A stretch of DNA of 64,000 nt, from contig CAVRIR010000002.1 of NCBI GenBank assembly GCA_963721305.1, forward strand, positions 174,000-237,999, in the 5' to 3' direction. The DNA is from an uncultured Acidimicrobiia bacterium (lineage in GTDB: Bacteria > Actinomycetota > Acidimicrobiia > Acidimicrobiales > JACDCH01). The notes under the pieces were generated by a model, which was given only the letters and a program-made list of their open reading frames with translations, ran no database searches and was not told where the DNA came from. Both the position numbers and the translations under genes were made by a program. Of this stretch, positions 41,099-52,677 are shown in pieces (within the stretch, counting starts at the first letter, position 1; each line of letters opens with the position of its first letter).

Positions 41099-42421
41099 TG
41101 TGTGATGTCAGGACATAGGAAACACCTGTCGCGCGTCATGGGAAACACCTGAGGTCCACCGTGGCGGCGATGCAGGTCTTGACGCTCGGGCATGTCACGT
41201 GCCCGGCTTGTCATCACTGCAGTGGTCCTCGAGGGCCGTGGGGTTCGGGAGGTCGGTCGTGACTATGGCGTGTCGCCGGGCTGGGTGTCGCGGCTGGTGG
41301 CCCGCTACCGCGACGAGGGCGACGCCGCGTTCGAGCCGAAGTCACGGCGGCCGAACAACTCGCCGAGGGCGACGCCGCTCGATGTTGTCGCGCTGATCGT
41401 CGAGCTGCGGCGTCGGCTCGTCGAAGCCGGCGACGACGCCGGAGCGGAGACGATCCGCTGGCATCTCGCGCACCACCATGGCGTGTCGCTGTCGGCCGCC
41501 ACGATCGGGCGCTATCTGCACCGTGCGGGACTCGTCACGCCCCAGCCGCACAAGCGTCCGCGCTCGAGCTATGTGCGCTTCCAAGCCGAGCAGCCCAACG
41601 AGACTTGGCAGGCCGACTTCACCCACTACCGCCTCGCTGGCGGCGTCGACGTCGAGGTCCTGTGCTGGCTCGACGATCACGCCCGCTACGCCCTGCGCCT
41701 CACCGCGCACCACCGCGTCACCGGACCGATCGTGCTCAACGAGTTCCGCGCCGCCATCGCCCACCACGGCGTGCCCGCGTCGACGCTGACCGACAACGGC
41801 ATGGTGTTCACCACCCGCTTCGCCGGTGGCAAAGGCGGCCGCAACGGCTTCGAGGCCGAGCTTCGCCGCCTCCGCATCACGCAGAAGAACTCCCGGCCCA
41901 ACCATCCGACAACCTGCGGGAAAGTCGAACGCTTCCACCAGACCCTCAAGCGATGGCTCGCCGCGCAACCCGACCAGCCCGTGACCATCGCCGAGCTACA
42001 AGCACTGCTCGACGCGTTCGCCGAGCACTACAACCACCAACGACCGCACCGATCCCTACCGCAGCGATGCACACCAGCCGACGCCTACCACCGGCGACCC
42101 AAAGCATCCCCAGGCGACCGCGACGACAGCCACGACCGCGTCCGCCACGACACCGTCGACCACAGCGCAAAGATCACTCTGCGCGTCAACGGGCGCCTGC
42201 ACCACATCGGCCTCGGCGCCGAACACCGCGGCACCCGCGTGATCGTTCTCGTCCACAACCTCGACGTCCGCGTCGCCCACGCCACCACCGGCGAGCTCAT
42301 CCGCAAACTCACCATCGACCCCGCCAAGAACTACCAACCCCTCGGACGGCCACCAGGACCCAAACCCCGCCAGCCACCGAGATAAGGGTTCAAGGTGTTT
42401 CCGATGTCTCGCGACATCACA
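41099..42421 (+). mobile_element. IS481-family insertion sequence, about 1.32 kb
   Basis: TGT...ACA ends; imperfect IRs containing GACAT-N-GGAAACACCT (41118-41127, extra copy 41141-41150; reverse copy 42393-42402); single DDE transposase. Confidence 0.9.
41192..42385 (+). CDS. IS481-family DDE transposase
   Basis: N-terminal HTH; TWQADFTH, LTDNG, CGKVERFHQTLK; HNHQRPHRSL. Confidence 0.92.
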   Translation: MSRARLVITAVVLEGRGVREVGRDYGVSPGWVSRLVARYRDEGDAAFEPKSRRPNNSPRATPLDVVALIVELRRRLVEAGDDAGAETIRWHLAHHHGVSLSAATIGRYLHRAGLVTPQPHKRPRSSYVRFQAEQPNETWQADFTHYRLAGGVDVEVLCWLDDHARYALRLTAHHRVTGPIVLNEFRAAIAHHGVPASTLTDNGMVFTTRFAGGKGGRNGFEAELRRLRITQKNSRPNHPTTCGKVERFHQTLKRWLAAQPDQPVTIAELQALLDAFAEHYNHQRPHRSLPQRCTPADAYHRRPKASPGDRDDSHDRVRHDTVDHSAKITLRVNGRLHHIGLGAEHRGTRVIVLVHNLDVRVAHATTGELIRKLTIDPAKNYQPLGRPPGPKPRQPPR

Positions 42422-42626: not shown

Positions 42627-45620
42627 CTATGCGGAGCCGCCGGTGGGAACTGTGGTTGTCGTCGTGGTTGTGGCCGCCCCGCCCGCCAGCAACGCCTGCG
42701 CCTGCTGTACCAACGCCTGTGCCTCGGACAGCTTCTGTCCGTACGTCGCGTAGTCCGCAGGCGACTGCTTCAACGCGGCATCCGCAGCATTGAACGCGTC
42801 GAGGGCTTGTGACAGCAGCTGGTCCGGCGTCTGCCCCGGCTGCGTCGGTTGTGTGGGCTGGGTCGGTTGTGTGGGCTGGGTCGGTTGCGTCGGTTGCGTC
42901 GGTTGGGTCGGTGGCGGCGTCTGCACCTGCAGATCAGCGAAGTTGGAGAACAGCTTCAACGCCTGCGGCAAGGTGTCGGACACCTGCACCTGGCCGTTGT
43001 ATTCGACGATCACCTTGCGCAAGAGCGGTGGGTTGGTCTCACCGGTGGCTTGTACGTACACGGGTCGCACGAACATCAGTGACTGCTCGATGGGCACGAT
43101 GATCAGGTTCCCGAACAACACCTCCGACCCACCACCGCGCACGCCCAGCAGCGTTTGCAGACCCGCGACCGTCGGATCGGACGTCATCTGGTTCGCTACC
43201 AACGTCGGTGACGGCGGCAGGTTGTTGCTCGGCATCTGGAACGTCTCGAGCTGGCCGTAGTGCCCTGGATCGGACTTCGCGATCATGAACGCGGTCATCT
43301 GCTGGTTGCCGCTCTGCGTCGGCACGAACGGGCGGAACAACATGAAGCCTTGTTGTTCCTCGTTGGGCAGGCTCAACAACACGTAGTACGGCGGTATTCG
43401 CCCAGTGGGCGAGGGCGGTACCTGACCCTGGTCGGCGTTGTTGTCCGTCGGCAGCGTCGACGCGGTGAGCCCGGTCTGCGTCTGCGTCCCGGGGTCGGGG
43501 GCGACGGTCCACACGTTGGCGTTGGTGTAGAACGCGTCGGGGTTGTCGAGGTGGTACCGGCCCCACATGTTCGTCTGCGTGCGGAACAGATCCTCGGGGT
43601 ACCGGAAGTGCTGGGCCAGCCCGTCGGGTGCGTCCGACTTCGAGAACAGGCTCGGGAACGCCTTCGAGTATGCCTTCACGATCGGATCGTTGTGGTCGAC
43701 GATGTACAGCGTCGTCGTGCCGTCGTACGCGTCGACGACGGCCTTCACCGAGTTGCGCACGTAGTTGAAGCGTTGCCCCGACAGTCCGCCGCCGCCATCG
43801 GTCACGGCGCGCTGCGCGTACGGATACTTGTCGGTGGTCGTGTAGCCGTCGATGATCCACTTGGTGCGCCCGTCGATGATCACCGGGTACGCGTCCGCGT
43901 CCCACGACATGAACGGCGCGATGGCGGTCACGCGCGCGTAGATGTCGCGGTTGATCACGATCTTCGACGAAGGCGTGATCGTGCCGGACACCAACGGGTT
44001 GAAGTCACCGAACCGGAGCGCGAAGGCAGCGCGCCGGATCCACGAGCTCATCTTGATGCCGTCCTGGCCGGAGTACGTGGTCGGGACGCTGTTACCGCTG
44101 GCGTCCTGGTAGTCGATCTCGGCGCGTTTCGTGTTCACCACGACATAGCCGTCGAGGTGTTCGCCGAAGTAGATGTCGGGTTGCGTGACCGGGATCCCCG
44201 CGGTGTTCGAGAGCGGGATGTCCTGGATCTGGAAGTCCGGCTGGCCTTCGGGCGTCTGCGCATTCGAGGGAGCGAGCACGAGCCCGTAGCCATGGGTGAA
44301 CGCGAGATGGGTGCCTTCCCACGATGCCTGCGGAACGCCATCGGTGTTCAGCTCGCGAGGCGACAGCAGCACCTGGGTGATCTGTCCGTTGATGTTGTAC
44401 CGATCGACGTCGACGTCGTCGATCTTGTAGAAGGGCTTCAGCGACTGAAGCTGCTGGTACGTCTTGAGCGAGATGTTCGACGACGGATCCCACAGACGGA
44501 TGTTGCTCACCGTCGTGGCGTTCTTCTGGATGTCGGTCGTCGTCAATGTGTTGTCGTTCTTGAAGTCGTTCGTCGTGACGTTCGAGAGGTTCATCGCCGC
44601 TTTGGTCGCTTCGATGTTTCTCTCGATGTACGGACGCTCCTTCGACGACTCCGACGGCTCGACGCGGAACTTCTGGATGAACGCCGGGACGATGGTTCCC
44701 GCCACGACCGCGACGAAGGCCCACAGGCCGACGCCGAGCACCGGCAGGATCCAACCGCGCCGGAAGATGTTGTAGAGGAACAGCGCGACCGAGAAGAGCG
44801 AGATCACGAGCAGCAACCGGATCGCCGGCAACTGCGCGTGAACGTCCGTGTACGTCGGTCCGTCGACCGTGCCGCGCGTCGACGTCGACAACGTGAACTG
44901 CTGCAGGTAGTAGCCGCCCGCCTTCACCAGCGCGAGCACGGCCAGCAGCACGGACAGGTGTGCCTTGACCTGCGGCGTCACCCGCTGGAACGGCGTCTGC
45001 ACCCGGATGCCGCCGTTCAAGTAGTGCGCGACCGCAGTGACGATGAACACGATCACGAACGCAGCGAACAACCAACCGACGACCCAGCTGAGGAACGGCA
45101 GTTGGAAGACGTAGAACCCGACGTCCTTGTTGAACTGCGGGTCCTTGACGCCGAACGACACGTAATTGCGGAACAGCAGGTACTCGTTCCACTCCCCTGA
45201 CGCACCTGCGCCGGCGATGACTGCGAACAGCGCCGCGATGCCGATGCGCAACAGCCCCTGTCGGCGACCGACCAACTCGTGGTAGCGCTCGATCAGTTCC
45301 TCTTCCGGGCCGGCAGGACGGAACTTCGGCGCGAGCCGGTCGGCGATCAGCAGGTTGACCCACATCAGGACGAAGAACAGGCCGATGAACACGACCGCGA
45401 GACCGATCTTCGTGCCGAGCACGCCCCGCCAGACGCCGGTCTGGCCGATGGAGTCGAACCACAGATAGTCCGTGTAGAAGGACGCGATGCTGCGAACCGT
45501 CGTTATGAGGATGAACAGGGCGATCGCCGCAACGACGAGAACGACTCGTCCTCGTCCAGGTCTGCGTTCCCGACGTCGCGTCCGTCGATCTCCGCGGGGC
45601 ATGTCGTCGCCGGCGCGCAT
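42627..45620 (-). CDS. UPF0182 family membrane protein
   Basis: YTDYLWFDSIG, DPQFNKDVGFYVFQLP, FNYVRNSVKAVVDAYDG, HFRYPEDLF; adjacent to tRNA-fMet as is typical in Actinobacteria. Confidence 0.93.
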   Translation of the reverse strand: MRAGDDMPRGDRRTRRRERRPGRGRVVLVVAAIALFILITTVRSIASFYTDYLWFDSIGQTGVWRGVLGTKIGLAVVFIGLFFVLMWVNLLIADRLAPKFRPAGPEEELIERYHELVGRRQGLLRIGIAALFAVIAGAGASGEWNEYLLFRNYVSFGVKDPQFNKDVGFYVFQLPFLSWVVGWLFAAFVIVFIVTAVAHYLNGGIRVQTPFQRVTPQVKAHLSVLLAVLALVKAGGYYLQQFTLSTSTRGTVDGPTYTDVHAQLPAIRLLLVISLFSVALFLYNIFRRGWILPVLGVGLWAFVAVVAGTIVPAFIQKFRVEPSESSKERPYIERNIEATKAAMNLSNVTTNDFKNDNTLTTTDIQKNATTVSNIRLWDPSSNISLKTYQQLQSLKPFYKIDDVDVDRYNINGQITQVLLSPRELNTDGVPQASWEGTHLAFTHGYGLVLAPSNAQTPEGQPDFQIQDIPLSNTAGIPVTQPDIYFGEHLDGYVVVNTKRAEIDYQDASGNSVPTTYSGQDGIKMSSWIRRAAFALRFGDFNPLVSGTITPSSKIVINRDIYARVTAIAPFMSWDADAYPVIIDGRTKWIIDGYTTTDKYPYAQRAVTDGGGGLSGQRFNYVRNSVKAVVDAYDGTTTLYIVDHNDPIVKAYSKAFPSLFSKSDAPDGLAQHFRYPEDLFRTQTNMWGRYHLDNPDAFYTNANVWTVAPDPGTQTQTGLTASTLPTDNNADQGQVPPSPTGRIPPYYVLLSLPNEEQQGFMLFRPFVPTQSGNQQMTAFMIAKSDPGHYGQLETFQMPSNNLPPSPTLVANQMTSDPTVAGLQTLLGVRGGGSEVLFGNLIIVPIEQSLMFVRPVYVQATGETNPPLLRKVIVEYNGQVQVSDTLPQALKLFSNFADLQVQTPPPTQPTQPTQPTQPTQPTQPTQPTQPGQTPDQLLSQALDAFNAADAALKQSPADYATYGQKLSEAQALVQQAQALLAGGAATTTTTTTVPTGGSA
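42839..42912 (-). repeat. (Pro-Thr-Gln)n coding tandem repeat in the UPF0182 C-terminal linker
   Basis: PTQ x7 from degenerate 9-nt repeats. Confidence 0.85.
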
Positions 45621-45632
45621 TGCCCGAGGACT

Positions 45633-47543
45633 CTAGTGAGATGACGGCACGAGGAGGCAGCGGCACCCTGGGTGCGCCGGCGGATGGCAGTGGCCGGTGG
45701 GGAACGGTTCGCCCCGCACGACCAGCCCCGCGAGTGAGTTGTCCTCTGCGTCCGGGCAGGGCGAGCCGCCGTTGTCGACCAGCCACCGCATCTCGGTGCT
45801 CGGCTCGGTGGTGTCGAACAAACCCCGATTGAACGCGGTGAGAACGGCATCGCGGGCCTGGGTCGCGACCTTGTGGGTCTTCCAGTCGCGGTACGCCGCC
45901 CGCACGCCGTCGGCCATGGCATCGTCGTCGCCGGCCGCTTCGCGCAGCGATCCCTCGATGCGATCACGCAAGGGCAGGGTCAACCCCTGTCCGAGCTCGA
46001 CGGCGACGTCGCCGACGTCGGTCTTGGCCGGCTCGGCGCCGTAGAACCCCCCGCCGCGCTGGGCCACGTCGTCGAGGTCGCTCCGTACGGCGGACGCGTA
46101 CCGCTCCGCATGCTCGCCGGCGTCGGGAAACAGATCGCCGAGACCCGACTTCGGATTCCGCCGCAGGCGGTCGAGGACCTCGTTCTGCTCGTCGGCGAGC
46201 ACCCGCTTGAGCTTCCGGACCGCCTGTTTCTCGGCCGCGTCGGTGATGCCGTCCCGTCGCTCGAGGAGGGCCTCGTCGTCGGACGAAGCGCCGGTCACGA
46301 CCTCGAGCTCGGTGTCGGCCTCGCTCTCGTCAGCGGTGGCCTCGGGTCCGGCCGCAGCCTCGACCGTGGGCGGAGCGGTGTCCGCCTCCGTCTCGGCCGC
46401 AGCCTCCGTCTCCGCCTCAGCCTCCGTCTCGGCCGCAACCTCGACCACGAGGGAATCGGCATCCGCAACGTCGTCCGGTGCCGCGTCGGCCGCCGCGAGC
46501 ACTTCCTGCGCCTTGGCGACCTCCGCTTCCCGCGCGGCGCGGATGCGGGCGAACAGCTCGTCGACGTCGACCGACGGTTCGTCGTCGTCTTCGTGGTCCG
46601 CGCCGACCGCCTGCGTGACCGCGACCACTTCGACGATCTCGACCACTTCGACGTCGTCTTCGTTGGCCATCGCCTCGCGGGCCGCCTCGACTTCACGTTC
46701 GAGCTCGCCGATTGTGGGGAGCGATTCTGACTCGACGCGCCGTGCGGCCGCGTCGGCCGCGATCTTCGCCGAGGTCAACGACGTCCGCAGCTCTTCGTTG
46801 GCCTCGTCGAGCGTGCGCTGCACGATCGCATAGGAGTCGAGCAGACGAGCGCGTCCGGCTTCGAGACGTTCGAGCTGCACACGCGACGCTTTGCGCTTGC
46901 GTGCCAGGTCTTCGAGGACACGCGTCCGGACGACGATCGCTTCCTCGACCACTTCGCGTCCACGGGCGGTCGCCGCCTCGGCCTCGGCCTCGCCGGCTCG
47001 CTCGGCCTCGACGCGGATGCGGTCGGCGTCGGCGCGGGCAGCCTCGAGCCTCTGCGCGGCTTCGACGTGCACTCCCTGAACGGCGGCCTCGGCCTCGGCG
47101 CGGAGGCGAGCCCCCTCGGCCTCGGCTTCCTCGGTGCTCCGGGTCATGATCGCTTCGGCTTCGCTGCGCAGTGAGGACGCTTCCTCTTGCGCTTCACGGA
47201 CCATCTCGGATGCGCTCTCGGACGCCTTCGACCTGATGTCGGCCGCGGCCTCGCGCGCCACGGTCAACACGCGCGCCGTCTCTTCGCCGAGTGCCGCGGT
47301 CAGGCGATCCTCGTCGAGGTACGAAGCCTCCGCGAGCCGGGACTCCAAGGACTCGAGCTCGGTTCGGAGGGCGGCCTCGCGATCGCGGGCCTCACGCAAC
47401 TCGTTGGCCACGTTCTCGAGGAACACTCGCACCGCGTCCGCGTCATAGCCGCGGAAGCTCGTCGGGAACGTCGTGCGGGCTATCGCTTCGGGACCGAGTC
47501 GCGCCGCGCGACGTTCGGCATCACGATCAGAAGAAGACATCAC
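45633..47543 (-). CDS. DivIVA-domain coiled-coil protein with phage head-morphogenesis (MuF/SPP1 gp7)-like C-terminus
   Basis: FPTSFRGYDADAVRVFL (DivIVA); long coiled coil; acidic linker; RWLVD..PCPD..N..GEPFPTGHCHPPAHPGCRC. Confidence 0.8.
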   Translation of the reverse strand: MMSSSDRDAERRAARLGPEAIARTTFPTSFRGYDADAVRVFLENVANELREARDREAALRTELESLESRLAEASYLDEDRLTAALGEETARVLTVAREAAADIRSKASESASEMVREAQEEASSLRSEAEAIMTRSTEEAEAEGARLRAEAEAAVQGVHVEAAQRLEAARADADRIRVEAERAGEAEAEAATARGREVVEEAIVVRTRVLEDLARKRKASRVQLERLEAGRARLLDSYAIVQRTLDEANEELRTSLTSAKIAADAAARRVESESLPTIGELEREVEAAREAMANEDDVEVVEIVEVVAVTQAVGADHEDDDEPSVDVDELFARIRAAREAEVAKAQEVLAAADAAPDDVADADSLVVEVAAETEAEAETEAAAETEADTAPPTVEAAAGPEATADESEADTELEVVTGASSDDEALLERRDGITDAAEKQAVRKLKRVLADEQNEVLDRLRRNPKSGLGDLFPDAGEHAERYASAVRSDLDDVAQRGGGFYGAEPAKTDVGDVAVELGQGLTLPLRDRIEGSLREAAGDDDAMADGVRAAYRDWKTHKVATQARDAVLTAFNRGLFDTTEPSTEMRWLVDNGGSPCPDAEDNSLAGLVVRGEPFPTGHCHPPAHPGCRCLLVPSSH

Positions 47544-47599: not shown

Positions 47600-48736
47600 C
47601 TACCCCGGAACGGATGTCGGGGTGGTGACCGGCGGCGGGAGTCCGCTGCCGCCGAGCGTCGACAGGAACGCGAGCGCGTCGTCGAGCGTGTGGACCGGCA
47701 CGATCTTCACGTCAGGAGGCGCGCTCTTCTCCGCGTCGGCGGCGTTCTCGACGGGAACGAGGAAGTAGCCGATGTGGGCGCGGTGCACGGTGGTGACCTT
47801 CTGCTCGATCCCACCGATCTCCCCCACGGTGCCGTCAGCCGAGATCGTGCCGGTGGCCGCGATGTCCTTCCCGCCGGTGAGGTCGCCTGGCGTCAGCTCG
47901 TCGAGCACCCCGAGCGTGAACGCCAGCCCGGCGCTCGGGCCGCCGATCTGCTCGGAGTTGATCGTCACGTCGAACGGGAGCGACGGATAGGAGAGGCGGT
48001 CGGTGGCGCCGACGCCGAGGAAGCCGGTCCCGGGCTTGTCCGGGTGGTCGGCCAGCGTCACGGTCGCGTCTCGCTTCTGACCGCTCGAGTTCTCGATCGA
48101 CAGCGTCACCGTGTCGCCGGGCTTCTTGGCTCCCAGGACGTTGACGAGCGCGTCGCGGCTGGCGATCGGTTGACCGTCGACTGCGACGATCGTGTCGCCG
48201 ACCTGGATGACACCGTCGGCTGGCGCGCCGTGCTGGATCGATGTCACGAGCGCGCCGGTCTGCGTCGGTGCCACCTGGTAGCCGAGCTGGTCGAGAGCGA
48301 CGAGCGTCGCCGCGTCCTTCGACTGACGCATGAGAACCTGATTGAGCTGGTCGTTCTCCTGTGGCGTCTGCGTCCCGAGCACTTCCTTCGCGGGGACGAG
48401 CGTCTGATCGGACGAGTGCTGCGCTCGGAACTTCTCGAACAGCGTCACCTGCGTGTCGACCGTGACCGTGACGAGATTGATCTGGTCGGGGGTCGGGAAG
48501 GAGTGATCGGGCGGCACGGTGATGAGCGGCTCGACGGGGTCGGCGCTTCCCGGTGCTTCGATCACGTACGGCACGTGGACGAGCACGGACACCACGAACA
48601 CCGTCGCGAGCAACGACATGACCATGCCGATGACGACCAGCCACCACCAGCGGCGCAGGACATGACCCAGGCCGCGCCGTTGCTCCGACGGAGGAGCCTC
48701 CGGACCCCCGGATACGATCGGGTTCGGCGTGTTCAC
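47600..48736 (-). CDS. PDZ-containing Lon-like (S16, YlbL) protease
   Basis: PYVIEAPG, PDZ, IGGPSAGLAFTL (catalytic Ser), GEIGGIEQKV (catalytic Lys). Confidence 0.9.
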   Translation of the reverse strand: MNTPNPIVSGGPEAPPSEQRRGLGHVLRRWWWLVVIGMVMSLLATVFVVSVLVHVPYVIEAPGSADPVEPLITVPPDHSFPTPDQINLVTVTVDTQVTLFEKFRAQHSSDQTLVPAKEVLGTQTPQENDQLNQVLMRQSKDAATLVALDQLGYQVAPTQTGALVTSIQHGAPADGVIQVGDTIVAVDGQPIASRDALVNVLGAKKPGDTVTLSIENSSGQKRDATVTLADHPDKPGTGFLGVGATDRLSYPSLPFDVTINSEQIGGPSAGLAFTLGVLDELTPGDLTGGKDIAATGTISADGTVGEIGGIEQKVTTVHRAHIGYFLVPVENAADAEKSAPPDVKIVPVHTLDDALAFLSTLGGSGLPPPVTTPTSVPG

Positions 48737-49052
48737 GTTCGTCATCAGTCTGGTGGTGATCGGCGCCGCTCTCGCGATCGCAGCCCGCATCGTGATGAAC
48801 GGGGCCCCTCAGCCTGCCACGGACGGGCCGCAACGCGACCGCGAGTCGGTGAGCCGCCGTCGAGACCGGGCGGCCCGCACGACTGCCCGTCAGAACCGGA
48901 TGAAAGAAGCCGGGCCCGTCCCCTGGTGGGTACGGGCCCGAGCTGTGGTGCTGCTGAGCACGCTGGTGGCGCTGCTCGGCGCCTTCCTCGCGCTGCTGAT
49001 CGTCCTCGGCGGTGCGCTCGTGCTCACCGGCCTGCGGAACGCAGTCCAATGA
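48729..49052 (+). CDS. Small two-TM hypothetical protein
   Basis: Hydrophobic N- and C-terminal segments; start uncertain because it overlaps the divergent gene start. Confidence 0.45.
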   Translation: MFTFVISLVVIGAALAIAARIVMNGAPQPATDGPQRDRESVSRRRDRAARTTARQNRMKEAGPVPWWVRARAVVLLSTLVALLGAFLALLIVLGGALVLTGLRNAVQ

Positions 49053-49884: not shown

Positions 49885-51020
49885 ATGCCCGCCGACGAGG
49901 TGCGCGTGACGTCGTGGTCCGACCACGTCGGCGCGCGCAACGCGTCGATCGAGTCCACCGGCCGGTGGCGAACGATCCGGACGCTCGACGGGGGCGGTCC
50001 CGAGTTCACCCTTGACGACGGACGCTCGATCGTGTCGTTCGCGTCGAACGACTACCTCGGGCTGACGCAGCACCCTTCGGTCGTTGCCGCGGCACACGCG
50101 GCCATCGACCGGTTCGGTACCGGCTCCGGCTCGGCGCGCCTGATCGTCGGCGGGCGGCCGATCCACCGAGAGCTCGAGGACGAGCTCGCGTCGTGGAAGG
50201 GCACCGAAGCGGCGCTGCTGTTCCCCACCGGCTTCGCCGCGAACCTCGGCGTGCTCACGACGCTCGCAACCGATGGGGTGCTGATCGTGAGCGACGAGCT
50301 CAACCACGCGTCGATCATCGACGGCTGCCGGCTCTCGCGCGCCGAGGTCGCGATCGCTCGCCATGCTGACGTCGACCATGTCCACGAGTTGCTGGCCGGT
50401 CACGACGGACCGTCGATCGTGGTGACGGACACGGTGTTCTCGATGGACGGCGACGTCGCCCCGTTGGATGACCTCGTCGAGGTGTGCGGGCGCCACGACG
50501 CACTGCTCGTGCTCGACGAAGCGCACGCGGTGCTCGGCCCCGCTGGTCCGGATGACGCGCGACGAGCGGGGTCACTGCGCTGCGGGTCGGGACGCAATCG
50601 AAGACACTCGGCGCGCTCGGCGGTTTCGTCGCCGGACCGCGCGCGTTCGTCGACCTGATCGTCAACGCCGCACGACCGTTCATCTTCACGACGGCGCCGA
50701 CTCCGGCGGACACCGCAGCCGCGCTGGCGGCTGTGCGGGTGCTGCGCTCGGACGAAGGCGATCGGCTCGTCGCGCGACTGCGCGCGCATGTCGAACGGAT
50801 CGCTCCGGGACATCCGTCGCCCATCGTCCCCGTGGTGCTCGGCGACGAACGACGTTCGCTCGACGCGTCCGCCCGCCTACTGGACGAGCATGGCCTGCTC
50901 GTGCCCGCGATCCGTCCTCCGACGGTCGCACCCGGGACGTGCCGGCTGCGCATCGCGCTGTCGGCCGCGCACACCGACGACCAAGTCGACTGCTTGGCCA
51001 AGGCGATCGCCGACCTGTGA
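49885..51020 (+). CDS. bioF: 8-amino-7-oxononanoate synthase (frameshift near 50540)
   Basis: FASNDYLGL, SDELNHASIIDGCRL, DTVFSMDGD, LDEAHA, IRPPTVAPGTCRLR. Confidence 0.9.
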
Positions 51021-51691
51021 CGCTCGTCGTCTGCACGGGAACCGCTACCGAGATCGGCAAGACGTGGGTGGGGGCGGCCGTGCTGTCCGAGTGGCGCGCC
51101 GACGGCGTGACCGTGGCGGCGCGCAAGCCGGTGCAGTCCTTCGACAGCGACGACACCGGTCCGACCGACGCCGACGTCCTCGCTTCCGCAACGGGCGAAC
51201 ATCCCGACGACGTCTGTCCCGGCCACCGGTCCTACGGCGTCGCGATGGCACCGCCGATGGCCGCCGCAGTCATCGGCAGCGAACCCTTCACGATCGCCGA
51301 TCTCGCCGGCGAGATCCGATGGCCGTCCCCCGAGCCCGCCATCCGGTGGGTCGAGACCGTCGGCGGGCCGCGGTCTCCCATCGCGTTCGACGGTGACTCG
51401 AAGGACCTGTGCGACGCGCTCGAGCCGGACCTCGTCGTCCTCGTCGCCGATGCGGGACTCGGCGCCATCAACTCGGTCCGGCTGTGCGTCGCCGCGCTGG
51501 ACCGTCACCGCGTCGTCGTGATCCTGAACGGCTTCGATGCGGACGACGACCTCCACGCCCTGAACCTGGCGTGGCTCACCGACCGCGAGAGGCTCGGCGT
51601 GGCCACCTCCCCCGCCGAACTCCAGGTCATGTGCGGCGCCACAGCGCCGCACATGCACCAACATTCGCCGCCTAGCGGCGGGCTCCCATGA
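51017..51691 (+). CDS. bioD: Dethiobiotin synthetase
   Basis: TGTATEIGKT P-loop, RKPVQS, VETVGG, GLGAINS; 4-bp overlap with bioF. Confidence 0.9.
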   Translation: MTLVVCTGTATEIGKTWVGAAVLSEWRADGVTVAARKPVQSFDSDDTGPTDADVLASATGEHPDDVCPGHRSYGVAMAPPMAAAVIGSEPFTIADLAGEIRWPSPEPAIRWVETVGGPRSPIAFDGDSKDLCDALEPDLVVLVADAGLGAINSVRLCVAALDRHRVVVILNGFDADDDLHALNLAWLTDRERLGVATSPAELQVMCGATAPHMHQHSPPSGGLP

Positions 51692-52677
51692 ACATCATCT
51701 TGAGCCGGTCGTAGTTCTCGATCACCTTGCCGGCGCCGAGCACGACGCACTCCAATGGCGCGTCGACCAGATGGACGGGGATCTCCGTCTCCTCGGCGAT
51801 GCGCAGGTCGAAGCCCCGCAACATGCCGCCACCACCCACGAGGTGCATCCCGCGCACGATGAGGTCCTGCGCCAGCTCGGGGGGCGCCTGGCCGAGGCAC
51901 GCGATCACGGAGTCGATCACCGCGACGACCTGTTCGTCGATGGCTTCGCGCACTTCCTCCGGGGAGAGGATGACCGTCTTCGGGAGTCCGCTCATCAGGT
52001 CGCGCCCGCGCACCTCCGCCTTGAACTCGTCGAGGGTCGGGTACGCGGATCCGATCGCGACCTTGATCTCCTCCGCGGTGCGCTCGCCCACCGCGATGCC
52101 GTACTCACGCCGGACGTAGATCTGGATGGCGTTGTCGACATCGAACGAGCCGACCCGCACCGCTTGCAGCGCGACGATGCCGCCGAGCGAGATCAGGGCG
52201 GTTTCGGACGTGCCACCGCCGATGTCGATGACCATGTTGCCGACGGGCTCCTGAATCGGGAGGCCCGCACCGATGGCGGCCGCCATCGGCTGTTCGATGA
52301 GCTGCGCGTCGGCTGCACCTGCACGGCGCGCTGCTTCCGTGACCGCGCGTCGCTCGACCTCGGTGATCGCAGACGGCACGCAGATGACGACGCGTGGACG
52401 GTTGAATCGGTTGACGCCGACGCGCTGCAGCAGCAGCCGGATCATCCGTTGGGTGATGTCGAAGTCCGTGATCGCGCCACCGCGCAACGGACGGACCGCG
52501 ACGATGTAGCCGGGCGTGCGCCCGATCATCTGCCACGCCTCGTGGCCCATCGCGAGTACATCGCCCGTCCGGCTGTTCAGCGCGATGACGGACGGCTCGT
52601 TCAGGACGATGCCGCGCGAAGCGCTCGTACACCAGCGTGTTCGCGGTGCCGAGGTCGATGGCGAGGTCGCGTGCCAG
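51672..52677 (-). CDS. mreB: Rod shape-determining actin homologue MreB/Mbl (frameshift near 52625)
   Basis: LAIDLGTANTLVY, EPSVIA, RPLRGGAITDFD, VIDIGGGTSE, LVGGGGMLRG. Confidence 0.9.

What the first reader, a model, noticed from the sequence alone, without database searches (positions are those of the whole stretch)
45633..47543. DivIVA fused to a phage MuF/gp7-like head-morphogenesis domain in a core operon
Seen: an N-terminal DivIVA motif (FPTSFRGYDADAV), about 250 aa of coiled coil, an acidic linker, then a helical region and RWLVD..CPD..N..GEPFPTGHCHPPAHPGCRC. It lies between the PDZ-Lon and UPF0182 genes, with no phage genes nearby. Established: DivIVA targets negatively curved membrane at poles and septa; the W..C..F..G..PP-HP-CRC signature is typical of phage minor head proteins (MuF, SPP1 gp7), which associate with the portal and DNA. 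Inference: a domesticated phage domain tethered to the cell pole, acting as a chromosome or DNA anchor, a portal or ejection decoy against phage, or a metal-binding scaffold. I know of no characterised protein with this architecture.
Basis: partly seen in the sequence, partly recalled or inferred. Interest (0 to 1): 0.72.

Follow-up and report, generated by a model that had tools for sequence, protein, structure and literature searches.

The report
DivIVA scaffold with phage MuF-like domain
A core chromosomal gene of Acidimicrobiia joins a DivIVA membrane scaffold, through a long acidic tether, to a domain with the fold of the phage head protein MuF; it always lies directly in front of the membrane-protein quality-control gene UPF0182, so a phage-type part seems to have been taken over for an unstudied cell-envelope job.

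Summary
One 636-aa gene on the minus strand (47543..45633) encodes six parts:
- a DivIVA N-domain;
- a ~190-residue coiled coil;
- a disordered acidic linker;
- a conserved helix inside that linker;
- a second disordered acidic stretch;
- a 217-residue C-terminal domain.

The C-terminal domain scores below threshold by sequence (PF04233 14 bits, TIGR01641 19 bits). Its confident AlphaFold model matches almost only phage MuF, minor-capsid and head-morphogenesis proteins (TM up to 0.79).

The fusion is not a chimera. It is single-copy, present in 40/40 genomes of the order, and its tree follows taxonomy. It also occurs in some other Actinomycetota (Egibacteraceae). In 100/100 testable cases UPF0182 lies directly downstream on the same strand.

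The domain is acidic (pI about 4.9), whereas gp7 and Mu F have pI about 9.4. No prophage or defence context was found.

Best reading (about 50%): a curvature-targeted cytoplasmic scaffold whose MuF-like, probably Zn-stabilised domain docks the UPF0182 (FtsH-linked) module.

New lead: UPF0182 behind this gene starts with a conserved cytoplasmic peptide, MRxPSD[LM]PRR, in 56/68 loci. The peptide is absent from 35 partner-less UPF0182 genes. No paper describing the architecture was found.

The parts
45633..47543 (-). Whole DivIVA-MuF-like gene (636 aa from GTG 47543; probably 635 aa from ATG 47540)
   Evidence: ORF list and translation. The identical 635-aa protein is in the database. Start region read.
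47328..47492 (-). DivIVA N-terminal (membrane-binding) domain, residues 18-72, with the SFRGYD loop (F30/R31 = B. subtilis F17/R18)
   Evidence: PF05103 at 49.8 bits. TIGR03544. 2WUJ alignment, E 5.7e-4. AF2.
46734..47312 (-). Long continuous helix (coiled coil), residues 78-270
   Evidence: AF2 full-length model gives helix 78-270 with pLDDT up to 95. The DivIVA Pfam match extends to residue 135.
46566..46676 (-). Acidic disordered linker 1, residues 290-326 (38% D+E, no K/R)
   Evidence: pLDDT below 50 over residues 294-324. Composition.
46485..46565 (-). Conserved linker helix, residues 327-353. It carries the near-invariant motif V-D-x-L-F-A-R-[IL]-[RK]-A.
   Evidence: The motif is conserved in nearly all of 55 aligned homologues, with F331, A332 and R333 at 90% or more. 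AF2 gives a helix with pLDDT about 86-91 flanked by disorder.
46287..46484 (-). Acidic disordered linker 2, residues 354-419 (32% D+E, no K/R)
   Evidence: pLDDT below 50 over residues 356-418. Composition.
45636..46286 (-). MuF-like C-terminal domain, residues 420-636: a helical bundle (420-578) followed by a small Cys/His knuckle
   Evidence: AF2 pLDDT 91 for the domain alone and 93-98 in the full-length model. Foldseek against BFVD gives 27 hits at E<=1e-3, almost all MuF, minor-capsid or head-morphogenesis proteins, TM up to 0.79. TIGR01641 E 1.3e-3. PF04233 matches 12 of 55 homologues, best E 3.1e-6.
45636..45809 (-). Cys/His knuckle, residues 579-636 (W587, D590, C596-P-D-A599, FPTG, H624, C627-R-C629); probable structural Zn site
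   Evidence: H..C.C is present in 230/234 family sequences. At least one Cys of the C-x2-C pair is kept in 234/234, although each position is individually lost (103 and 26 times).
42627..45620 (-). UPF0182 membrane protein (997 aa). It starts 12 nt after the stop of the fusion gene and in the same frame. N-terminal cytoplasmic peptide MRAGDDMPRGDRR...
   Evidence: PF03699 at 893 bits. Junction read. No terminator-like site between the genes. Adjacency holds in 100/100 genomes. N-tail motif.
47600..48790 (-). PDZ-Lon (S16-type) single-pass membrane protease; first gene of the conserved trio
   Evidence: PDZ_2 and Lon_C Pfam hits. One N-terminal TM segment. Conserved upstream position in 19/20 sampled Acidimicrobiia.

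Best explanation
The gene encodes a cytoplasmic, membrane-associated scaffold of the DivIVA family. Its far end carries a cellular (non-prophage) descendant or sibling of the phage MuF/SPP1-gp7 head-protein fold.

Proposed mechanism:
1. The DivIVA N-domain and coiled coil oligomerise and bind negatively curved membrane at the septum and poles. This is inferred from family knowledge.
2. Two disordered acidic tethers, interrupted by one conserved helix, hold out the MuF-like domain.
3. The MuF-like domain is an acidic helical bundle capped by a Cys/His knuckle that probably binds Zn. It acts as a protein-docking module for the product of the next gene, UPF0182. UPF0182 is a 7-TM protein predicted to form a dome and recently tied to FtsH/YccA membrane-protein quality control.
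4. The upstream PDZ-Lon protease may also be part of the module.
5. The outcome would be to position or regulate this envelope-proteostasis module at sites of division or growth.

A candidate docking site is the conserved cytoplasmic N-terminal peptide MRxPSD[LM]PRR of UPF0182.

Shown here: the architecture, the fold, vertical inheritance, the invariant gene coupling, the acidity, and the Cys/His pattern.

Inferred: localisation, zinc binding, the physical contact with UPF0182, and the direction of transfer (phage to cell).
For: Architecture.

MuF-like fold: the AF2 model has pLDDT 91 and pTM 0.87. Its best matches in BFVD are phage head-morphogenesis, minor-capsid and MuF-like proteins, with probability 1.00 and TMq up to 0.79. 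PF04233 matches 12/55 homologues, best E 3.1e-6. PF04233 picks out only this gene in the whole genome (E 0.008). The motif order W..D..L.G..F..P..CRC is collinear with gp7 and Mu F.

Real and old:
- 3422 database homologues, nearly all carrying DivIVA.
- 3972 representative clusters.
- One copy in 40/40 genomes of the order and in 102/151 of the class by profile. Further divergent orthologues were found by synteny.
- The domain tree follows taxonomy: 3 label changes against 13.1 in shuffles.

Coupling to UPF0182:
- UPF0182 is directly downstream on the same strand in 100/100 cases, with a median of 127 nt between domain matches.
- The same holds in 9/9 loci from other actinobacterial classes, including Egibacteraceae.
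- In the window the gap is 12 nt with no terminator. The median stop-to-start distance is 13 nt in 68 loci.
- Mantel r is 0.74 between the two proteins' distances.

UPF0182 function: phenotypic correlation with ftsH and yccA and a predicted tetrameric dome (bioRxiv 10.1101/2025.11.14.688347).

Candidate docking peptide: MRxPSD[LM]PRR starts UPF0182 in 56/68 loci, with varied synonymous codons. It occurs in 0.8% of control windows and in 0/35 partner-less UPF0182.

A separate canonical DivIVA sits in the dcw cluster, so this gene is an extra, specialised paralogue.
Against: - No direct evidence of any contact with UPF0182. Adjacency and co-inheritance are also expected for merely co-regulated genes.
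- The short cytoplasmic loops of UPF0182 show no partner-specific feature.
- The N-tail motif is confounded by phylogeny. It is strongest in one order, and it is absent from the 9 partner-holding genomes of other classes.
- Sequence evidence for MuF is below curated thresholds for this protein. hhalign to a gp7-family profile is not significant. No solved MuF structure was available for comparison.
- Some lineages keep the helical bundle but lack the Cys/His knuckle (G007, G037). The most MuF-like piece is therefore dispensable.
- Two Acidimicrobiia families and most Actinomycetota have UPF0182 without this partner. UPF0182 therefore does not need it.
Confidence: 0.5

Rival explanations
1. A division or elongation scaffold that works independently of UPF0182. 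The MuF-like domain or the conserved linker helix would bind another partner: the FtsH cytoplasmic ring, the PDZ-Lon N-tail, SepF/FtsA, or MreB-associated proteins. The adjacency to UPF0182 would then reflect only shared regulation in an envelope operon.
For: - MreB lies 1-3 kb upstream in many genomes, and PDZ-Lon is directly upstream in 19/20.
- The linker motif SVDVDELFARIR loosely resembles this genome's FtsZ C-terminal peptide DDFDVPSFLK.
- No partner-specific feature was found in the UPF0182 cytoplasmic loops.
- From my own knowledge, B. subtilis YlbL/DdcP, a PDZ-Lon protease, degrades a division inhibitor.
Against: - The link to PDZ-Lon is looser than the link to UPF0182. PDZ-Lon is 7 kb away or absent from the fetched stretch in several out-of-class loci, whereas UPF0182 is always adjacent.
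- PDZ-Lon N-tails carry no conserved motif.
- The resemblance to the FtsZ peptide is short and could be chance.
Confidence: 0.25
2. Chromosome or DNA anchor: the MuF-like domain binds DNA, as SPP1 gp7 does, and DivIVA tethers the DNA to the pole.
For: gp7 is described as a DNA-binding protein targeted to the procapsid by the portal (Stiege 2003, cited in PMC6316719). From my own knowledge, DivIVA proteins anchor origin regions through RacA or ParB in other bacteria.
Against: - The domain is acidic (pI 4.93, net -12; 34 homologues range from pI 4.5 to 5.6), and it is flanked by linkers with 32-38% D+E and no K/R. gp7 and Mu F have pI 9.46 and 9.26.
- No par or segregation genes lie in the conserved neighbourhood.
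Confidence: 0.05
3. Anti-phage decoy: the cellular MuF-like domain captures incoming or assembling phage portals at the membrane and blocks assembly or ejection.
For: Phage MuF proteins bind portal oligomers. Defence by interference with virion assembly is known (PMC10884400, listed).
Against: - Single copy, core, vertically inherited, and with fixed synteny over a whole class. This is unlike defence genes, which are patchy and sit in variable islands.
- No PADLOC match and no PHROG match.
- The domain has diverged far from phage MuF at the sequence level.
Confidence: 0.05

Closest known systems
DivIVA / Wag31 / GpsB family (Pfam PF05103; B. subtilis DivIVA N-domain structure 2WUJ)
   Same: The N-terminal domain has the SFRGYD membrane-binding loop, is followed by a long coiled coil, and scores above the Pfam cut-off.
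   Different: - It is a second paralogue outside the dcw cluster. The canonical DivIVA lies after ftsZ-sepF on another contig.
- It carries about 350 extra residues: acidic tethers, a conserved helix and a MuF-like domain. These are unknown in characterised DivIVA proteins.
- It is always coupled to UPF0182.
Phage MuF superfamily: Mu gpF (gp30), SPP1 gp7 (Pfam PF04233 Phage_Mu_F, TIGR01641; MuF1-4 of Jamet et al. 2017, PMC5576092)
   Same: The overall fold is shared: a helical bundle plus a C-terminal knuckle (Foldseek TM up to 0.79). The C-terminal signature is collinear: W..D..L.G..F..P..C-R-C. Sequence matches are weak but specific.
   Different: - It is not next to portal or terminase genes and not in a prophage. 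By contrast, 96% of bacterial muf genes are prophage-associated.
- It is acidic rather than basic.
- It sits at the C-terminus of a cellular scaffold rather than being a free protein or the N-terminus of a toxin.
- It scores below the curated thresholds.
- A C-x2-C/His/C-x-C set replaces the RTR..H of gp7 and Mu F.
MuF polymorphic toxins and polyvalent proteins (PMC5576092, PMC5512222)
   Same: The logic is modular: a MuF domain acts as the address or docking part of a multidomain protein.
   Different: In those proteins MuF is N-terminal and delivers an enzymatic or toxin cargo into the phage head. Here MuF is C-terminal, the other part is a cytoskeletal scaffold, and no toxin or immunity gene is present.
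UPF0182 / FtsH / YccA membrane-protein quality-control module of Actinobacteria (bioRxiv 10.1101/2025.11.14.688347); by analogy HflK/C-FtsH
   Same: The invariant downstream neighbour is UPF0182. The proposed role is as an accessory or positioning subunit of that module.
   Different: No cytoplasmic DivIVA-type partner has been reported for UPF0182. Mycobacteria, corynebacteria and bifidobacteria, where UPF0182 was studied, lack this gene (0 hits outside a few deep lineages).

Membership tests
DivIVA (PF05103) | N-terminal DivIVA domain scoring above the curated threshold | tested here: met
   49.8 bits against a cut-off of 28, residues 18-135. TIGR03544 scores 30.3 against 22.
DivIVA (PF05103) | Exposed hydrophobic and basic loop residues used for membrane binding (B. 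subtilis F17/R18) | tested here: met
   The alignment to 2WUJ puts F30/R31 of SFRGYD on F17/R18.
DivIVA (PF05103) | Coiled-coil stalk after the N-domain | tested here: met
   AF2 gives a single helix 78-270 with pLDDT up to 95.
DivIVA (PF05103) | Localisation to negatively curved membrane (septum and poles) | not testable with these tools
   This needs fluorescence microscopy.
Canonical DivIVA/Wag31 orthologue | Position in the dcw cluster after ftsZ-sepF | tested here: not met
   The dcw-linked DivIVA is a different 398-aa gene on contig C3, in the order murC, ftsZ, ylmE-like, sepF, divIVA.
Phage MuF (PF04233 / TIGR01641) | Sequence score at or above the curated threshold | tested here: not met
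   PF04233 scores 14.0 bits against 29.6. TIGR01641 scores 19.1 against 39.65. One orthologue, in G046, reaches 28.4 bits. 12/55 homologues match at E<=0.1, best 3.1e-6.
Phage MuF (PF04233 / TIGR01641) | Fold shared with MuF/gp7-type minor head proteins | tested here: met
   Foldseek against BFVD gives 27 hits at E<=1e-3, nearly all annotated as head morphogenesis, minor capsid or MuF-like, with TMq 0.4-0.79. The targets are predicted structures. No solved MuF structure was found in the PDB.
Phage MuF (PF04233 / TIGR01641) | Profile-profile similarity to a bona fide MuF subfamily | tested here: inconclusive
   hhalign of A2 against a 24-sequence SPP1 gp7 family alignment gives probability below 1%. 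Both profiles are shallow (Neff about 3), and gp7 belongs to the RTR..H subtype.
Phage MuF (PF04233 / TIGR01641) | C-terminal signature W..D..L.G..F..P..C-R-C | tested here: met
   The signature was read directly in P0001, gp7 and Mu F. H..C.C is present in 230/234 family members.
Phage MuF (PF04233 / TIGR01641) | Gene located beside portal or terminase genes in a phage or prophage | tested here: not met
   The neighbours are PDZ-Lon, UPF0182 and MreB in all sampled genomes. There is no PHROG hit.
Phage MuF (PF04233 / TIGR01641) | Basic, DNA-binding character as described for gp7 | tested here: not met
   pI 4.9 against 9.46 (gp7) and 9.26 (Mu F).
Phage MuF (PF04233 / TIGR01641) | Binding to a portal oligomer and packaging into virions | not testable with these tools
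   This needs biochemistry.
Anti-phage defence systems (PADLOC-DB) | Match to a known defence protein model, or a patchy island-like distribution | tested here: not met
   No PADLOC hit. The gene is single-copy and vertically inherited with fixed synteny.

The most novel reading that the evidence does not exclude
On this reading the MuF fold is a general adaptor that docks onto ring- or dome-shaped oligomers by gripping a short terminal peptide. In Acidimicrobiia a cellular copy, hung from a DivIVA scaffold, would grip the conserved cytoplasmic N-terminal peptide MRxPSD[LM]PRR of UPF0182. It would thereby place the UPF0182/FtsH membrane-protein quality-control machine at the septum and poles. 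The conserved linker helix, which resembles the FtsZ C-terminal peptide, would add a link to the divisome. If so, this would be the first cellular function for a MuF domain. It would also suggest how phage MuF recognises portals.
Probability: 0.15. Interest if true: 0.8.

Novelty: new variant of a known kind. Interest (0 to 1): 0.62.

Why it matters
MuF is one of the commonest tailed-phage head proteins, yet its molecular function is unknown. It has been reported almost only in phages and prophages (96% of bacterial copies, PMC5576092). A core, vertically inherited cellular copy with a fixed genetic partner offers a tractable, non-viral setting for asking what the fold binds.

The finding also supplies a candidate cytoplasmic partner and a candidate contact peptide for UPF0182. 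UPF0182 is universal in Actinobacteria, is a fitness determinant in mycobacteria, and has only just been linked to FtsH-type proteostasis.

It would add a new cargo type to the DivIVA family and a probable case of domestication of a phage structural domain. The class has cultured members (Ilumatobacter, Iamia, Microthrix-related), so the idea is testable.

Tried and rejected
1. Sequence search of the C-domain and of its family profile against PDB chains found nothing meaningful.
3. hhalign of the family profile against gp7 alone, Mu F alone and a gp7-family alignment was not significant.
4. A search for partner-specific features in the three cytoplasmic loops of UPF0182 compared 32 partner-holding with 35 partner-less sequences. 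None was found. Net charge of the N-tail also did not differ.
5. Apparent co-duplication of the MuF-like/UPF0182 pair in G098 and G033 was rejected as evidence. The two copies are 70-82% identical at DNA level over the whole 9 kb including flanks, so mixed bins or large duplications are likelier.
6. No conserved docking-type motif was found in the PDZ-Lon N-tails.
7. Naming the out-of-class lineages largely failed. Only Egibacteraceae was concrete. The others are labelled 'Actinomycetota bacterium' or 'Actinomycetes bacterium'.
9. The idea of reading through the in-frame stop to fold MuF and UPF0182 as one chain was dropped. The tool returns no PAE or coordinates, so an interface could not be judged.
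Full report
OBSERVATION

The coordinates hold one open reading frame on the minus strand, 47543..45633. It is 636 aa from a GTG. An ATG one codon later gives the 635-aa form that gene callers recorded. G+C is about 70% and does not differ from the flanks.

ANATOMY

- Residues 18-135 match Pfam DivIVA (49.8 bits, cut-off 28).
- Residues 16-69 align to the B. subtilis DivIVA N-domain crystal structure 2WUJ (E 5.7e-4). F30/R31 sit on the membrane-binding F17/R18.

A full-length AlphaFold2 model built on 55 homologues gives:
- the N-domain, residues 18-72;
- one unbroken helix, 78-270;
- a disordered stretch, 294-324;
- a confident helix, 327-353 (pLDDT about 86-91);
- a second disordered stretch, 356-418;
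- a compact domain, 420-636 (pLDDT 93-98).

The two disordered stretches have 32-38% D+E and no K/R. The helix between them carries a near-invariant motif, V-D-x-L-F-A-R-[IL]-[RK]-A.

IS THE C-TERMINAL DOMAIN MuF-LIKE?

By sequence the evidence is weak but specific:
- TIGR01641 (SPP1 gp7) gives E 1.3e-3 and 19 bits against a cut-off of 39.65.
- PF04233 gives 14 bits against 29.6 for this protein.
- PF04233 matches 12 of 55 homologues at E<=0.1, best 3.1e-6.
- PF04233 finds only this gene in the whole 4.3-Mb genome.
- hhalign against a 24-sequence gp7 family profile is not significant.
- PDB sequence searches are empty.

By fold the result is clear. The domain modelled alone (pLDDT 91.1, pTM 0.87) has no PDB match better than designed helical bundles. 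In the BFVD viral library it has 27 hits at E<=1e-3, nearly all annotated as phage head morphogenesis, minor capsid or MuF-like, with TMq up to 0.79.

The C-terminal signature is collinear with gp7 and Mu F: W..D..L.G..F..P..C-R-C. I therefore call it MuF-like by fold and motif. It is not a threshold-passing member of PF04233.

A PROBABLE METAL SITE

In 234 distinct family sequences, H..C.C is present in 230. The upstream C-x2-C pair occurs as:

| First Cys | Second Cys | Count |
|---|---|---|
| C | C | 105 |
| C | lost | 103 |
| lost | C | 26 |
| lost | lost | 0 |

About 11 double losses would be expected if the two positions were independent (Fisher p 1.5e-7, not corrected for relatedness). 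One Cys of the pair plus H624, C627 and C629 would make a four-ligand site. This protein is of the C-x2-A type.

DISTRIBUTION AND INHERITANCE

The fusion is not an assembly chimera.
- 3422 database proteins match the C-domain, and nearly all also carry DivIVA.
- A profile search of 1.84 billion representatives finds 3972 clusters, 1132 of them below 1e-30.
- The domain is single-copy in 40/40 genomes of the same order and in 102/151 of the class.

Several profile-negative genomes still hold a divergent orthologue in the same place. Two lineages (G007, G037) keep the helical bundle but end before the Cys/His knuckle. Only two families truly lack the gene: one has a UvrD-like gene upstream of UPF0182, and the other, with 1.1-Mb streamlined genomes, has PDZ-Lon directly upstream.

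Outside the class, 12 of about 276 Actinomycetota genomes have the domain. These include Egibacteraceae, class Nitriliruptoria. Most of them again carry a DivIVA N-terminus.

A maximum-likelihood tree of the domain follows taxonomy: 3 label changes against 13.1 in shuffles, 0 of 200 as low. The named relatives are Ilumatobacteraceae, Microthrixaceae, Iamiaceae and others.

CONTEXT

- In 20 diverse Acidimicrobiia the order PDZ-Lon, fusion gene, UPF0182 is kept on one strand, often with MreB 1-3 kb upstream.
- Across the class sample, every one of 100 MuF-like domains that shares a contig with a UPF0182 gene has it directly downstream on the same strand. The median gap between domain matches is 127 nt.
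- The same holds in 9/9 loci from other classes, where PDZ-Lon is sometimes far away.
- In the window the stop and the UPF0182 ATG are 12 nt apart and in frame, with no terminator-like site between them.
- In 68 further loci the median stop-to-start distance is 13 nt.
- Pairwise distances of the two proteins correlate (Mantel r 0.74, 0/2000 permutations).

The genome's canonical DivIVA is a different gene, in the dcw cluster after ftsZ and sepF.

WHAT UPF0182 IS

A 2026 preprint (10.1101/2025.11.14.688347) links UPF0182 knock-down phenotypes to ftsH and yccA in M. smegmatis, C. glutamicum and B. breve. It predicts a tetrameric periplasmic dome on 7 TM helices.

My hydropathy analysis of the window's protein gives seven TM segments and a basic cytoplasmic N-tail.

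(a) The MuF-like domain is acidic. Its pI is 4.93 and the 34 homologues range from 4.5 to 5.6, whereas gp7 and Mu F have pI 9.46 and 9.26.

(b) UPF0182 genes that follow the fusion gene begin with a conserved peptide, M-R-x-P-S-D-[LM]-P-R-R.
- It is present in 56/68 loci.
- The pattern occurs in 0.8% of control windows.
- Synonymous codons vary (six Arg codons at position 2, three to four Pro codons), so selection acts on the protein.
- The window's version is MRAGDDMPRG.
- Under the strict pattern it is found in 11/23 of the class-wide partner-holding sample, mostly in the window's order. Looser MRVP[TS] forms occur elsewhere.
- It is found in 0/5 partner-less Acidimicrobiia, 0/30 partner-less other Actinomycetota and 0/9 partner-holders of other classes.
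- This correlation is confounded by phylogeny and is a lead, not proof.

(c) The linker motif SVDVDELFARIR loosely resembles this genome's FtsZ C-terminal peptide DDFDVPSFLK. This may be chance.

MOST LIKELY MECHANISM (confidence about 0.5)

A DivIVA-type scaffold binds curved membrane. Through flexible acidic tethers it presents a Zn-stabilised MuF-like docking domain to the cytoplasmic face of the UPF0182 module, possibly to its N-terminal peptide. This would position or regulate envelope proteostasis at division or growth sites.

Shown: architecture, fold, inheritance, gene coupling, acidity and the ligand pattern.

Inferred: localisation, zinc, the contact, and the direction of domain transfer. 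Phage-to-cell transfer is the more parsimonious direction, because MuF is widespread in tailed phages and 96% of bacterial copies are prophage-borne (PMC5576092).

RIVALS

- A scaffold acting on another partner such as FtsH, PDZ-Lon or the divisome (0.25).
- A DNA anchor (0.05). The acidity argues against it.
- A phage decoy (0.05). The core, single-copy, syntenic distribution and the absence of PADLOC or PHROG hits argue against it.

NOVELTY

Full-text searches found no paper that combines DivIVA with MuF, or that describes this family. Database names are only 'DivIVA domain-containing protein' or 'hypothetical'.

Earlier AI notes of this scan describe the same family in at least 22 other genomes and reach similar readings. 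I consulted the family notes only after stating my own reading. I re-tested their central claims here. They are not independent evidence.

LIMITS

- There is no experimental data and no PAE or coordinates from the models.
- No solved MuF structure was available for comparison.
- All statistics on motifs ignore phylogenetic non-independence.

Noticed in passing
window 41192-42385 (+): An IS481-type transposase (rve, rve_3 and HTH domains) lies about 240 bp beyond the 3' end of UPF0182. It is the only mobile element near the operon.
   Followed up: no
window 49885-51691 (+): ORF 49885-50658 matches only the first half of an aminotransferase class I/II model (profile positions 3-197 of 361). The overlapping ORF 50468-51691, in another frame, carries an AAA_26 (dethiobiotin-synthase-like) domain in its second half. 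This looks like a bioF-bioD pair or fusion with a frameshift, which may be an assembly error.
   Followed up: partly
window 46485-46565 (-) and L166 6157-7332 (+): The conserved linker motif SVDVDELFARIR of the fusion protein resembles the C-terminal peptide of this genome's FtsZ (…DDDDFDVPSFLK). It may be a mimic or it may be chance.
   Followed up: partly
window 45582-45620 (-), and loci L046-L125 just downstream of the MuF-like stop: UPF0182 begins with a conserved cytoplasmic peptide, MRxPSD[LM]PRR, in 56/68 Acidimicrobiia loci. The peptide is absent from 35 partner-less UPF0182 genes.
   Followed up: yes
L128 (G007) and L132 (G037), ORF directly upstream of UPF0182: The orthologues in two lineages end right after the helical bundle (…FRVWRSDEAERRLR…) and lack the Cys/His knuckle. 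The most MuF-like element is therefore dispensable there.
   Followed up: partly
L040 (G205:C4): Two tandem coiled-coil genes, each ending in a MuF-like domain and without a recognisable DivIVA motif, lie upstream of UPF0182 in one non-Acidimicrobiia genome.
   Followed up: partly
L167/L168 (G098) and L169/L170 (G033): Two copies of the whole PDZ-Lon / fusion / UPF0182 locus occur per genome. They are 70-82% identical at DNA level including the flanks, so these are probably mixed bins rather than true paralogues.
   Followed up: yes
window 51672-52550 (-): MreB lies 3 kb upstream on the same strand. This proximity recurs in many Acidimicrobiia and in some out-of-class loci.
   Followed up: partly
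window 45621-45635 (-): The stop codon (TAG) of the fusion gene and the ATG of UPF0182 are 12 nt apart and in the same reading frame.
   Followed up: no
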